Shown: positions 28,831-47,274 of the stretch, one piece after another
Position numbering within the stretch: position 1 is the first letter of the stretch
Layout of the letters: each line of letters starts with the position of its first letter
Position numbers and translations under genes: made by a program
Notes under the pieces: model-generated
What the model saw: only the letters and a program-made list of their open reading frames with translations
Told to the model about the DNA's origin: nothing
Database searches by the model: none
NCBI GenBank assembly: GCA_964016885.1
Contig: OZ024742.1
Span: 145,328,001 to 145,392,000, forward strand
From: Eledone cirrhosa
Taxonomy: Eukaryota
Length of the DNA stretch: 64,000 nt
Direction: 5' to 3'

Positions 28831-30490
28831 TATACCAGTGCAACGTGAGGACGGATACCTCCAACAAAGCCTATATAGGACTTACCGCATGTGACTTCAA
28901 GACCCGGCTATACCAACATAGACATACCTTCCGAAACCCGGCCCGGCGTCACGCCACTACACTTTCGGGCCACATATGGGACCTCAAGGACAACAACATC
29001 ACCTATGATCTCACTTGGAGATTACTGTCCAGAGCCAATTCTTACACGGGAGGACGCCGTCCGTGCAATTTATGCTCGGAGGAAACTTTACAAATGCTGT
29101 TTTCGACGGACCCAACTCCTAAACAAGAAAGATGAACTGGTTACTGCATGTAAACATAGATTGCGTAGGACTTACCTCGCCTCAAACCCCATAATGACCG
29201 GGGGGGTTAGACTAGGGCTATAACACCCCAGTTGCCGATTTTGCAATGGGTAACCCCTGCTTGCCAAGGAAGACGTAAGATCTTCTTTGTATTCTTTTAT
29301 CGCATCCTTTATTTCCTTCCCCCCTCTCTCCTTTGTCCTTCTACCCCAGCTCTTCTCCTTTGTCGCGGTCTTTTCTCGCCCACCCGAGGCTGCCCTTTGG
29401 CCCCATGTAGCCTTAGTACCCCCACTCCCCCCTACCCCTAGTCTTTGATAGATTTGGCGGACTCCGCCCTTTATAGCAGTTGGCTTAGACCCCGGATACT
29501 TGCCCCCCTTTTCCGACCGCTCCCACTATTCTCTGTGCCCTCTATATTTCTTAGTGGCACTTATGCCTTATTTTTTCGTTTCAGTATTTCTTGCTTCGCT
29601 TTTCTTCTGGGCGGGGTGGATTCTGAACTTATTTTCTCCGTATTCTACCTTTATTTCGTACGAACTTTCATGTAGCTTGTTTTAGATCTTTTAGAGTTAG
29701 CAATAGTATATATTTTTCCCGGGACTCAGAATTATTATGTCGTACAAGTTCACTTTGCTGCACTGGGTCGTGCTGACCCGGATGGAAACCTTTATTGTTT
29801 ATTTCGTGGTAGTCTCTTTAGTATTTTGGCCCCTTTTGTTGACCAGTCACCGTATCATTTACGTACTTATACCTCTTAAAAGGGTCCTTGCCTAATTCGT
29901 CCACCTAGTTCTTTTACTTATTTCCTTATTTATTTATTTATTTATTTATTTACTTCTTTCTTTCTTTCTTTATTTTATTCTCGCCTAACAATAGCCTGAC
30001 ACCTAGGTCGTAGAATTTAATTTTTTCTTTACACTTATTTGCTTTTCTTCACTCTCAGTATTTTTTCTTTCCTATTTTTACCCCCCATTGTTCTACCTAC
30101 CGTTCCGACTTCCTCCCCCTCCCCCTCCCCTGTATCTTCTTTGACCTCATGCCCAGCTGTAGCTGGCACTACCAACGCTTGATTGGGTCTACTCCACCCC
30201 CTCCCCTCTTTCTCCTACTGGCAGGTTTAGCCACCATCTCCCCTACTAATTTGCAACCACAGAATTACTACTGATTTTTGACATCACTTTGACCATATAT
30301 GGAATTACCCTTGAGAAGATCGGCTATTTAAATACCAGAATAAATGTTCATTTAGTCCAGAATTAGCCGTCGAAACGGCTTGAGCTCAGCTGTCGGGGTC
30401 TTACTGGTTCCTATTACCCACTCTACACCTCAAGTATTGAGTACTTTGGTGCGTTATGGTCCACCTGGTTCCTTACCACATTTCCTTCGT
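28831..30490 (+). mobile_element. 5'-truncated Penelope-like element: GIY-YIG endonuclease fragment, long 3' region, hammerhead-bearing terminus
   Basis: IYQCNV...KAYIGLTACDFKTRLYQHRHTF...TTLSGHIWDLK...TWRLL...CNLCSEE...(frameshift) LLNKKDELVTACKHR. Flanked by (TA)n on both sides; hammerhead fold at 30307-30399. Confidence 0.8.
30307..30399 (+). ncRNA. Putative type-I hammerhead ribozyme, U3-A8 core variant
   Basis: CCC-UUGAGAA-[GA(U)CGGCUA...UAGCCGUC]-GAAA-CGGCU...AGCU-GUC-GGG; predicted cleavage after 30394. Confidence 0.65.
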
Positions 30491-31095
30491 TATATATATA
30501 TATATATATATACTTTCAGACGTTTCAACAATCTGGCAGGAAGGTATACGTTGCTGACGATAGTTAATAAGCTTGAAACTAGTAGCGCTCATCTATAAAG
30601 CGCTCATCTATAAAGTTGATGTCTGTAGTTTTGCTAATTTTTTCTTTTCTACATCTGGAATCTTATATGCTTCTATACGCGCATGATTTTCGAGGATCTG
30701 TGCGTGTGTTCGCACATGTATATTTAAATTTACTATCCTGAAGTGTGAGCAGTACTCTATCTAATTGATGGTGTTGCTATTGTTTAGGACCAGGTGTGCC
30801 GTGATCGAGCAGGGCTTTGATCACAAACGTTCCAGCCGTAACCATCCGGTTTTTTTTTTATGTACATACGATACAATGTCCAATGCGCTTTCATTTTATT
30901 TGAGGGATATTGGGCTGCAACGATTACGAAGAGACCAACCCAACATCTATCGCTTGAGTTTCATTTTGTAAGTATTCAGCAGCTGTTTGGAATGATGGTC
31001 GATGTTTTTACTTACGTGTGAAATCCTAGATGTATAGGCAAAGGCTAAGAAGGTGTTGCAATGATCATTAAAATAATGTATGAAAACAAACTTAC

Positions 31096-31150
31096 TCAGA
31101 AAGTTTTTCTTGGACCATTTTGCATGTTTGGCGACACTCTGATATAAATT
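31096..31150 (-). CDS. SPTLC1: SPTLC1-like exon (KFISECRQTCKMVQEKLS)
   Basis: ttacag|...|gtaag, 55 bp; phases fit both neighbours; aligns to human GIFAVLKEKCGQIHKALQ. Confidence 0.78.
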
Positions 31151-32696
31151 CTGTAACAGAAAGCAGGAATTACATAACATACTGTAACACAGTAACAAGT
31201 GTGACTTAGTAGTTTTATTACTGCAGTAGGATTTGGTATTTGTTGCAATATCACGTTAACATAAGATGTTATAAGCTTTAACAAAACACTTATAAAGCAT
31301 GTGTTGCATCATATACTGTTACATATTATAATCACAGATGGTAACGTGGGTTACAACATACAACGTATCATGGACTGCAACAGAAGCTGTTTGTAACATC
31401 AGCTGTAACAGAGGTTGAGATAAAGGTTATAAATGACTCAGGAATACAGGATGCAGTTTAGGCAGAAATTATGTGCAGAGTGACCAGATGTGCCATGTAT
31501 AATAGCATGGGCTGTATAAAGTGTGTTATAAAGGGATTATAATGTATAACGCATAATGAACCTAATCCTCGGTCATCAATGACCAACGGTTTGCAACTGG
31601 AATATTCCTCTCCAAGGCACAAAACCTGGGGAATAGTATTTTGCGAAAAGACCAGCAGTCGCCCATGCATGCAAGTTTCCCCTCTCCACGCCAATGATGT
31701 TGGTCAAGGAAAAGACAAAGGCTGGTACGGCTTGACACCAGTGTCATCGCGAGCAAGGATGCCAGTCATCGCGACAGGATGCCAGTCTGGTTGCAGGGTT
31801 TTGACTCCCAAGCTGCTGCTGGTACTACTGTTTCTCCAGTTGAGCCAGCTGGAGGCAACGTCAAATAAAATGTCTTGCTCAAAAACACAACATGCCACCC
31901 GGCCCGGGAATCGGACTCATGAACAGATGATCGTAAGCCAGACGTAAACAATATTGAATGCTAATATAGGCTATAACATAGATCATTGACATGGTTTCTG
32001 ACCCGAGCTGATTAGATAAACCATAGAGGTGGACACGCTCAACGCTAGAGTGTGCTATAGCCTACTATAGGTGTGTTGTTGTTTAGTTCTAAGTCAACAC
32101 TGATCGACTAGACCGATGTATTACAGCAATGGCAATCCCGTTTATTTAAGGATATTTAGGACAGTATAATACTTTTGCTCTATTTAAGATGGTAAGTGTC
32201 ATTTGAGGGATATTTAGCTGTTATTCTAGCACGTTGAATGACCACGTTGAAGCCCCCTCGCTGGCTCACAACATTGTGTACACTTTAAATTGTAACAAAA
32301 TATAATATACGTAACACACATTGTGACAAAGTTTATAACATAAACATAATTTACAGTATGAGATGTACCAAAGTTCATTACATTTTTTGCAGTATATATA
32401 TATATATATACATAATTCAAATTCAAAAGAGATATATATATATACATAATTCAAATTCAAAAGATATATTTAGAGAGCGAGAGTATTATGTAAACATATT
32501 GTATACAAAATAGTATTTCTCAAACGATATATGACTCTTCCCCTCTCTCTCTCTCTATAAATATAGCTTTTGAATTTGAATTATTGATACTCTGAACTAA
32601 GGTCCATTTAGCTTGTTTAAAAAGAAACACGGTTAAAATATATATTAAATATGTTTTGATACCTTAACAGTGTATGTATATATATATATATATATA

Positions 32697-32889
32697 GGAA
32701 CGAGTAAGACCCCGACGGCTGAGCTCAAGCCGCTTCGACGACTAATTTTGGTCCAGAATTAGCCGTCGAAACGGCTTGAGCTCAGCCGTCGGGGTCTTAC
32801 TCGTTCATATTACCCACTCTACTACCCTAAGTATTGAGTACTTTGGTGCGTTATGGTCCACTTGGTTCCTTACCACATCTCCTTCGTTT
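32697..32889. repeat. Asymmetric foldback derived from the 30354-30490 Penelope-like terminus
   Basis: Centre at about 32752; long arm nearly identical to 30357-30490; embedded in (TA)n. Confidence 0.85.
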
Positions 32890-45964: not shown

Positions 45965-46162
45965 CGAGAGTCCGTAGTGTTCAGTAATTCCACGGCCTGT
46001 TTCTCCGAGGATTCCAAAGCTAAAGCTTTCATCGACCATCACACGTACTTTGTAAATGTCTCGGAATTCTACAATCTTCGGTAAAGGACATATATCTCCA
46101 ATGTTGAGGTACAATGCTTCGACGACAATTAGCTTTTTGGTCACTTTAGCTTGTTTCGGATT
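45965..46162 (-). CDS. SPTLC1: SPTLC1-like exon (NPKQAKVTKKLIVVEALYLNIGDICPLPKIVEFRDIYKVRVMVDESFSFGILGETGRGITEHYGLS)
   Basis: cacag|...|gtaag, 198 bp; strong match to SPTLC1 IVVEGLY.N.G.ICPLP and ES.SFGVLGEHGRGVTEHYG. Confidence 0.95.
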
Positions 46163-46623
46163 CTGTGTGGTAATTAGTTTATTAGATATTTATATAAAAA
46201 TGCAGTTATAAGTAAAAATGATTTCTAGCATTGGGCTGGTCTTCACAGACCAAGTCTCCATTTTAGTCGGATCTATCCAGCATTACAGTGGTGATCAAAC
46301 ACGACGGAATTTCTATGGAAGATTTGTCTTAACGTTAATTTACACACACACACACACACACACACACACACACACACACACACACACACACACACACACA
46401 CACACACACACACACATACACATATATATATATATATATATATATATATATATATATATATTGTTATACTTTGGGAGGGTCATGTTGCCAATAAGAAACA
46501 CACGCACCAGTTGCTTTCACTTCAATTTATTATATATTTATAAATTTATAAATTTACAAATCTACAAATTTATAAATTTCTGGTTGGTTGGTTGGTTCCA
46601 CAACCAGATAGTTGTTTATATAT

Positions 46624-46668
46624 AGTCATAGTCCTTTCGTCACACACTCTGTGACCTCTTCAGTGACT
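46624..46668 (-). ncRNA. Putative minimal type-I hammerhead ribozyme, sense to SPTLC1 pre-mRNA
   Basis: Stem I AGUCA/UGACU; CUGAAGA; stem II GUCACA/UGUGAC; GAAAG-GA-CUA. Enclosed by 45-bp perfect inverted repeats at 46458-46502 and 46702-46746. Confidence 0.7.
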
Positions 46669-46860
46669 GGGGATTCCTTTCTTTGTTTCTGTGCCTTTCC
46701 TTGTGTTTCTTATTGGCAACATGACCCTCCCAAAGTATAACAATATCGGTTTCAACACACGATTTCAGATAAAGAATCTTGCTAAACAAATTCAGAAACG
46801 AAATATATATATATATATATATATATATATATATATATATATATATATATATATATATAT

Positions 46861-47274
46861 ATGAATGTATGTATAGTATATTTGCCAATATACCGTATGT
46901 TTAATTAAAAACATTTAGAAGACCATTCGCTATCAGTTTTAAAATAGTGACTATGTCACCTACTTTTTTTTTCGGCAAAGGTAGGGAGAGATTGCTGGAC
47001 CGGCAATCGCTCTGTGTAATCAGCTCTTGATTATTACTCGACTGGAATTCTATAAGAATCCAGCTTCTATAATTGTCGGCAAAGGCAGGAGAGTGCGTGG
47101 TTTTGATAAACACGAAACAGCGAGAAACAGACTGTCAGCCTCTCTCCCTACCTTTGCCGGAAAGAAAATAAGTAAGTGACATAGTCACTACTTGAAAACT
47201 GATAGCCAATAGTCTTCTAAATGTGTTTAATTAAACATACGGTATATTGCCAAATATACTATACATACATTCAT
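46861..47274. repeat. Inverted repeat (about 130-bp arms) with a central UUGAUAA...GAAAC..GUC hammerhead-like motif
   Basis: Arms 46861-46990 / 47141-47274. Motif 47099-47140 has stem I GGUU/AGCC, extendable by 47075-47093 pairing with 47142-47160; stem II is weak. Confidence 0.7.

What the first reader, a model, noticed from the sequence alone, without database searches (positions are those of the whole stretch)
30307..47140. Several families use the compensatory U3-A8 hammerhead core
Seen: cores UUGAGAA (30311, 33687, 45432), UUGAAAA (44967), UUGAUAA (47103) and UUGAGGA (35372), each followed by a hairpin, GAAAC and a GUC, GUA or AUC site with a closing stem I. Units at 33682 and 45427 differ greatly in sequence yet keep the same helices. 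Established: C3-G8 is a tertiary Watson-Crick pair, and natural U3-A8 variants exist but are missed by CUGANGA searches. Inference: the double substitution plus helix covariation suggests selection for activity. Their long stems II and III differ from the minimal PLE hammerheads.
Basis: partly seen in the sequence, partly recalled or inferred. Interest (0 to 1): 0.75.

Follow-up and report, generated by a model that had tools for sequence, protein, structure and literature searches.

The report
Loose-core hammerheads in jumping genes
These are copies of several jumping-gene families whose predicted self-cutting hammerhead RNA carries an already known variant core pair (U-A instead of C-G), and in one large protein-free family that pair has also spread as U·G and C·A mismatches, which likely makes it a natural test of how weak the ribozyme can be; cutting has not been tested.

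Summary
The three main units (30311, 33687, 45432) are type I hammerhead folds with the stated cut sites. U3-A8 is the family state, not decay. 30311 ends a young 3,531-bp Penelope-like element whose other copies have an intact 717-aa RT/GIY-YIG ORF. 33687, 35372 and 45432 are subfamilies of one ~600-bp non-coding, tandem, retrozyme-like superfamily, so they are not independent origins. 44967 and 47103 are damaged copies of short-stemmed families, and 35372 is U3·G8. Natural U3-A8 is published, including in PLE hammerheads (PMC3088659, PMC4209133).

The surprise is that the pair does not covary strictly. Genome-wide pattern counts for the superfamily are U-A 2,427, U·G 1,011, C·A 76 and C-G 15. 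Position 8 switches A/G six times on the tree, while the other core positions depart only in scattered copies and position 7 is free. This fits selection for a possibly weak or protein-assisted ribozyme. No RNA data were found and cleavage is untested. The scan noted this wobble-core family before, on another piece of the same genome.

The parts
28830..30496 (+). F1: 5'-truncated copy of a young autonomous Penelope-like element (GIY-YIG end, 3' region, hammerhead, ~100-nt tail) between (TA)n tracts
   Evidence: 98.9% identical to the 3,531-bp unit of a five-copy tandem array; array copy has a 717-aa ORF
30307..30398 (+). F1 type I hammerhead, U3-A8 core 30311-30317, GAAA 30372-30375, GUC cut site 30394
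32712..32888 (.). F1 3'-end fragment with inversion; lacks the 5' core strand
33624..34066 (+). F2: 5'-truncated copy of a 617-bp non-coding tandem unit (retrozyme-like), in (TA)n
   Evidence: about 99% identical to tandem arrays with period 616-617; longest stop-free frame 62 codons
33682..33817 (+). F2 hammerhead, U3-A8 core 33687-33693, A·A at the base of a 79-nt stem II arm, GAAA 33773, GUC cut site 33812
   Evidence: hammerhead fold is the minimum-energy structure
35129..35742 (+). F2b: near-full monomer of a sister subfamily (83% to F2) whose normal core is U3·G8
   Evidence: same stem II sequence in a ~40-kb array with 609-bp period on C1
35367..35502 (+). F2b hammerhead, U3·G8 core 35372-35378, GAAA 35458, AUC site 35497 with broken 15.2-16.2 pair
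   Evidence: hammerhead fold 5.9 kcal/mol above the minimum
44557..45070 (.). F5: inverted pair of 3'-end fragments of a family with a minimal palindromic U3-A8 hammerhead
44625..44662 (-). F5 minimal hammerhead with intact palindromic stem III and GUA site, core 44658-44652; predicted dimer type
44963..45000 (+). F5 minimal hammerhead, core 44967-44973, site changed to CUA (44996)
45220..45790 (+). F3: ~570-bp non-coding unit, distant subfamily of the F2 superfamily
45427..45558 (+). F3 hammerhead, U3-A8 core 45432-45438, A·A at the base of a 76-nt stem II arm, GAAA 45515, GUC cut site 45553
   Evidence: hammerhead fold is the minimum-energy structure
46865..47270 (.). F4: 3'-end fragment with inverted partner
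47099..47140 (+). F4 short hammerhead, core 47103-47109, stem II mismatched in this copy, GAAA 47124, GUC site 47136; the family also has C3-G8 members
47326..47509 (.). F1 3'-end fragment with inversion; lacks the 5' core strand

Best explanation
These motifs are type I hammerhead folds carried by Penelope-like retrotransposons and by ~600-bp non-coding tandem elements that likely depend on them, and they are predicted to cut long read-through transcripts into unit-length RNAs. Shown: each family keeps U4-G5-A6, A9, GAAA, the UH site and the helices, while position 7 varies freely. Shown: positions 3 and 8 are held to pyrimidine and purine, with U-A commonest and with U·G and C·A lineages also amplified in the non-coding superfamily. 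Inferred: cleavage after C17 releases a unit-length RNA; in F1 its 5' end would lie 190 nt before the AUG. Shown: insertions run straight through the cut site and end 100-250 nt beyond it. Inferred: the PLE reverse transcriptase therefore copies uncut multimer or re-ligated circle, starting internally, into (TA)n targets. Inferred: because cut and uncut or re-joined RNA are both needed, slow or protein-assisted cleavage is tolerated, which lets the 3-8 pair wander between U-A, U·G and C·A.
For: Core-blind sample (first 100 of 2,755 matches, counted by eye): U-A 48, U·G 49 (28 in one array), C·A 3. None has a pyrimidine at 8 or a purine at 3, all four bases occur at 7, and U4/G5/A6/A9 are broken in only 6 single copies. 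(first 100 of 2,921): GAAA 100 of 100, GUC 89 of 100. Helix covariation: 91.4% of cells paired against 83.5% shuffled and 27-49% slid, with 107 double changes (45 rows). The hammerhead fold is within 1 kcal/mol of the minimum in 40 of 64 rows. Unselected 1.4 Mb: C-G 134 hits (shuffles 1.2), U-A 32 (3.2), C·A 2 (1.2), U·G 6 (2.0). F1 sits in tandem arrays with an intact ORF. Related PLEs from metagenomes carry sense hammerheads beside the ORF, with 69 C-G and 2 U-A hits. PMC11167929 (passages): an active PLE initiates RT internally, mainly uses unprocessed RNA, and its hammerhead cuts only with the PLE protein present.
Against: In a deep-mutational study of one type III hammerhead, single mutants at this pair and all doubles except the G-C swap had low activity (PMC9901934, passages). 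Hammerhead mutants did not block PLE insertion in vitro (PMC11167929), so conservation might serve another role. Covariation shuffles ignore relatedness (caveat), and stems I and proximal III show almost no double changes. The window copies at 30311, 35372, 44967 and 47103 are individually damaged. No autonomous partner sharing sequence with F2/F3 was found: F1 3' region against F2/F3 gave no hit better than E 2, so dependence on a PLE is inferred from architecture only.
Confidence: 0.75

Rival explanations
1. Only the U3-A8 (and C3-G8) versions cut. U·G and C·A lineages are catalytically dead passengers that amplify from uncut tandem transcripts or by DNA-level array expansion, and the six switches at position 8 partly reflect recombination between subfamilies.
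For: Low activity of 3/8 single mutants (PMC9901934). Cleavage was dispensable for insertion in vitro (PMC11167929). 28 of 49 U·G copies lie in one array. The tree rests on about 200 columns and assumes no recombination.
Against: U·G occurs in six separate places on the tree, and one clade is rejected (p-AU 3e-50). U·G lineages keep the other core bases while position 7 differs among them (A, G, U, C). The youngest U-A lineage (33687) is nested inside U·G lineages. 59 of 76 C·A copies share one stem II lineage spread over many contigs, with tandem pairs (by eye).
Confidence: 0.3
2. The fold is conserved as a binding or packaging signal for the PLE protein, or as an RNA structural element, and cleavage is marginal in all these variants.
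For: Several features are expected to slow catalysis: U-A or wobble core, A·A at the base of stem II, and no recognisable loop I-loop II contact. PLE hammerheads cut weakly in vitro (PMC4209133).
Against: The pattern of constraint (free 7, Y3-R8, fixed G5/A6/A9/G12-A14, UH site) matches the catalytic geometry. Mismatches at the base of stem II are known in active hammerheads (U·U; PMC3088659 section 8) and in an axolotl retrozyme family (PMC7229834).
Confidence: 0.12
3. The U3-A8 cores are decayed canonical hammerheads or chance matches.
For: Four of the six window copies carry private defects; fold z-scores are weak.
Against: U3-A8 is the majority state in all five families, including near-identical young copies with an intact ORF. 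The pattern gives 2,427 exact matches against 5 for the reversed control.
Confidence: 0.03

Closest known systems
Hammerheads in PLE pseudo-LTRs, including the U3-A8 variant of Schistosoma mansoni Cercyon elements (Cervera and de la Pena 2014, PMC4209133; parts 1-2 of 4 read, supplements not seen)
   Same: Type I topology in the terminal repeat of a PLE; U3-A8 covariation (~1,300 hits reported there); extra base after A9; fungal and protist PLEs there also have a large helix III; F5 matches the minimal palindromic type.
   Different: F1-F3 combine U3-A8 with long stem III and 54-79-nt stem II arms in an animal; A·A flanks stem II in F2-F4; amplified U·G and C·A lineages are not mentioned in the parts read.
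Natural U3-A8 core variants (Perreault et al. 2011, PMC3088659; passages and section 8 read, figures and supplements not seen)
   Same: Same compensatory swap; mismatch at 10.1-11.1 also reported there (U·U).
   Different: There they are rare examples; here they are whole families with thousands of copies plus non-compensated states.
Animal non-LTR retrozymes (Cervera and de la Pena 2020, PMC7229834, passages; Li, Clavereau, Pollet bioRxiv 10.64898/2026.07.22.740005, part 1 of 5)
   Same: Non-coding tandem units with one type I hammerhead each, low GC, co-occurring with PLEs and proposed to derive from them.
   Different: Monomer 570-620 bp against ~170-400 nt described; non-canonical core; very long stem II; circular RNA not shown here.
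Neptune/Nematis-type EN+ PLEs (Craig et al. 2021, PMC8557442, passages)
   Same: RT then C-terminal GIY-YIG, Cys-rich linker, CCHH-like residues, partial tandems, inverted 5'-truncated partners, (TA)n targets.
   Different: Clade not fixed by a reference tree; best homologues are 39-54% identical and mostly unnamed.

Membership tests
Hammerhead ribozyme (type I) | Three helices around core strands in the order I-core-II-GAAA-III-UH-I | tested here: met
   for F1-F3; F4 and F5 families have short stems
Hammerhead ribozyme (type I) | Conserved U4 G5 A6, A9, G12 A13 A14, A15.1-U16.1, H17; free position 7 | tested here: met
   core-blind samples
Hammerhead ribozyme (type I) | Watson-Crick pair between positions 3 and 8 | tested here: inconclusive
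   met by U-A in F1, F3, F4, F5 and 33687; not met by the amplified U·G (1,011) and C·A (76) copies, including 35372
Hammerhead ribozyme (type I) | Site-specific self-cleavage | not testable with these tools
   needs in vitro or in vivo assay
Hammerhead ribozyme (type I) | Loop I-loop II tertiary contact | not tested
   no contact was identified by eye; no formal search was run
EN+ Penelope-like element (F1) | Single ORF with PLE-type RT and C-terminal GIY-YIG | tested here: met
   717-aa ORF with RT and GIY-YIG-type motifs read by eye; 2,049 homologues; Pfam scan itself gave no family
EN+ Penelope-like element (F1) | Tandem/pseudo-LTR structure, inverted 5'-truncated partners, hammerhead in the repeat | tested here: met
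   period 3,531 four times in a row; inverted partners
Nematis or Neptune clade | Placement among reference RTs | not tested
   no reference sequences at hand; only the linker and target preference were compared with PMC8557442
Non-LTR retrozyme (F2/F3) | Non-coding head-to-tail units, each with a type I hammerhead | tested here: met
   head-to-tail joint also in three other runs
Non-LTR retrozyme (F2/F3) | Expressed as monomeric linear and circular RNA | not testable with these tools
   needs RNA data for this organism
Non-LTR retrozyme (F2/F3) | Mobilised by a PLE in trans | tested here: inconclusive
   PLE-like insertion anatomy ((TA)n targets, fixed 3' end, 5' truncation), but no sequence shared with the F1 3' region

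The most novel reading that the evidence does not exclude
A large retroelement superfamily uses hammerheads that cut with a U3·G8 or C3·A8 wobble at the catalytic tertiary pair, rescued by its giant stem II arm or by the PLE protein. Its lineages have crossed between U-A, U·G, C·A and C-G repeatedly. This would give a living record of compensatory evolution inside a ribozyme active site and a direct test of how much cleavage a PLE or retrozyme needs.
Probability: 0.4. Interest if true: 0.7.

Novelty: new variant of a known kind. Interest (0 to 1): 0.5.

Why it matters
The role of hammerheads in PLE and retrozyme transposition is unresolved, because cleavage was dispensable in the one in vitro system. 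This superfamily offers naturally paired variants (U-A, U·G, C·A) on near-identical backgrounds, each with known amplification success, so cleavage rate can be set against copy success. It also shows that CUGANGA-only searches miss roughly one in six hammerheads in this genome (32 U-A against 134 C-G hits in 1.4 Mb). The U3-A8 core by itself is not new.

Tried and rejected
Rfam scan: no hammerhead family among 76 matches. The repeat finder was swamped by TA microsatellite. Pfam gave no family for the F1 ORF. Sequencing runs: no RNA holder listed. Laying four runs gave contigs only, so nothing on cut ends; the one guessed RNA run held only scraps. My first reading that 47103 has no stem II was dropped once family copies showed the true register. 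A script to map insertion 3' ends had offset errors and was not used (middle part); ends come from BLAST. The first protein tree left out the two metagenome U-A elements because of my ORF filter; it was redone with 33 of the 52 C-G rows. It gives three changes, two forced by starred branches, and it contains no C-G elements of this genome, so one origin versus several inside the genome is open. Two long-branch rows (L371, L372) were dropped before the counts. Alignment A2 and the trees were gathered with core-containing patterns, so core invariance there is ascertained and was not used as evidence. Papers not held: Lunse et al. 2017, Przybilski and Hammann 2007 and two mutational papers. Rates for U·G cores could therefore not be checked.
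Full report
Setting. The window lies in a 3.0-Gb animal genome rich in (TA)n. I checked the six units, gathered copies of each family, sampled the genome without selection, and compared with relatives and papers.

Observation. The hammerhead is the minimum-energy fold for 33687, for 45432 and for a typical F1 copy, but not for the window's F1 copy; z-scores are weak. 35372 is U3·G8 with a private AUC. 44967 is a minimal palindromic type whose plus copy reads CUA; its inverted twin at 44658 (minus) is intact. 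47103 belongs to a short-stem family and has a mismatched stem II. Rfam finds no hammerhead in the window.

F1 (30311). The top 40 of 1,194 candidates are 98-100% identical. A five-copy array has period 3,531 and an open 717-aa frame with RT, a Cys-rich linker and a GIY-YIG-type end (motifs read by eye, Pfam blank). The cut site lies 190 nt before the AUG. The window copy is 5'-truncated, 28830-30496, and ends about 100 nt past the cut site in (TA)n. Core readings are 45 of 46 UUGAGAA. Homologues are ~700-aa ORFs at 39-54% identity. In 77 related metagenome loci the descriptor found 69 sense C3-G8 and 2 sense U3-A8 hits among 82, many with a mismatch at the base of stem II. On a protein tree U-A needs three changes, two forced by starred branches, so the swap recurs in this PLE group.

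F2, F2b, F3 (33687, 35372, 45432). F2 is a 617-bp unit in head-to-tail arrays with no frame over 62 codons. F2b is 83% identical to it. F3 is a ~570-bp unit, often in partial tandem. One profile and one tree link all three. Across 45 diverse rows, 91.4% of helix cells pair against 83.5% shuffled and at most 48.5% slid. Double changes concentrate in stem II and distal stem III; stem I and proximal III hardly vary. In 64 rows the hammerhead fold is within 1 kcal/mol of the minimum in 40; median gaps are 0.0 for U-A and 0.9 for U·G.

The 3-8 pair. Exact genome-wide counts of one pattern with only positions 3 and 8 changed: U-A 2,427 (control 5), U·G 1,011 (control 1), C·A 76 (control 0), C-G 15 (control 0), about 11 of which look by eye like another long-stem lineage. 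With the core left blank, the first 100 of 2,755 matches gave U-A 48, U·G 49 (28 in one array) and C·A 3. None had Y8 or R3, all four bases occurred at 7, and 6 single copies had a broken U4, G5, A6 or A9 (counted by eye). With the 3' core blank, GAAA was intact in 100 of 100 and GUC in 89 (by eye). With positions 3, 7 and 8 masked, the tree needs 6 changes at position 8, 2 at position 3 and 16 at position 7; one clade for the 17 G8 rows is rejected (p-AU 3e-50). The young U-A lineage of 33687 sits inside U·G lineages. Recombination could add to this count. 59 of the 76 C·A copies share one stem II lineage on many contigs, some in tandem pairs (by eye). In F4, found with a query that lacked the core, 22 of 29 readings are U-A, 2 are clean C-G and 1 is C·A.

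Genome background. In 140 evenly spaced 10-kb stretches, hits at score 22 or more were C-G 134, U-A 32, U·G 6 and C·A 2, against shuffled means of 1.2, 3.2, 2.0 and 1.2; all 16 classes together gave 196 against 30. Families are nearly uniform for one core type, and several unrelated ones use U-A.

Mechanism. Shown: family-level conservation of the catalytic pattern, the helices, the tandem structure, and insertions that cross the cut site. Inferred: read-through RNA is cut after C17 to unit length and may circularise, as reported for retrozymes (PMC7229834, passages). The PLE enzyme then copies uncut or re-joined RNA from an internal start. An active PLE behaves this way in vitro, its hammerhead cuts only with the protein, and hammerhead mutants still insert (PMC11167929, passages). 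That would allow weak cores to persist. Against this: in one deep-mutational data set, single changes at this pair were nearly inactive (PMC9901934, passages). No cleavage was measured here.

Known versus new. The C3-G8 tertiary pair is established (PMC3884650, passages). Natural U3-A8 was reported in 2011 (PMC3088659, section 8) and in PLE hammerheads in 2014 (PMC4209133, parts 1-2). Retrozymes as PLE derivatives are proposed in PMC7229834 and a 2026 preprint (part 1 of 5). Searches for U3-G8, UUGANGA, C3U/G8A and related terms found no report of natural wobble cores. The library is partial, figures and supplements were not seen, and key mutational papers were not held. After reaching this reading I found that the scan had noted the wobble-core family on another piece of this genome.

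Verdict. Real, largely explained, and a new variant of a known kind. The U3-A8 claim is old. The amplified U·G and C·A lineages with giant stem II arms are the part worth testing. Interest 0.5.

Noticed in passing
window 34253(+), 35000(+), 36559(+), 36416(-), 46663(-): Canonical C3-G8 hammerheads of other repeat families lie inside the same range; further minimal ones are visible by eye near 30556, 43965 and 47810.
   Followed up: partly
L150-L229, L307-L366: Hammerhead density is about one per 8 kb above background in 1.4 Mb, which would extrapolate roughly to hundreds of thousands in the genome.
   Followed up: partly
G000:C1:81709751-81748803: A ~40-kb tandem array of the U3·G8 subfamily with 609-bp period.
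   Followed up: partly
L367-L380: A C3-G8 lineage with the same A·A-flanked long stem II layout and similar stem I, but a short or degenerate stem III; possible sister of the F2/F3 superfamily.
   Followed up: partly
L200 (-) 3124; L188 (+) 1631; L204 (-) 3154: Two more ORF-bearing PLE families in this genome are followed by U3-A8 hammerheads and group with F1 on the protein tree.
   Followed up: partly
window 24745-25890 (-): Intronless 381-codon actin-like frame (identity recognised from memory).
   Followed up: no
window 55217-63332 (-): Two tandem, broken non-LTR retrotransposon copies with endonuclease and RT frames (recognised by eye).
   Followed up: no
window 35743-39184: A 3.4-kb degenerate (TA)n tract holding inverted-repeat insertions such as 36340-36640; the Rfam miRNA hits here are hairpin or microsatellite artefacts.
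   Followed up: no
L040:908 in runs X2 and X5: The extra A after A9 reads C in some related copies, so the A·A at the base of stem II is not invariant.
   Followed up: no
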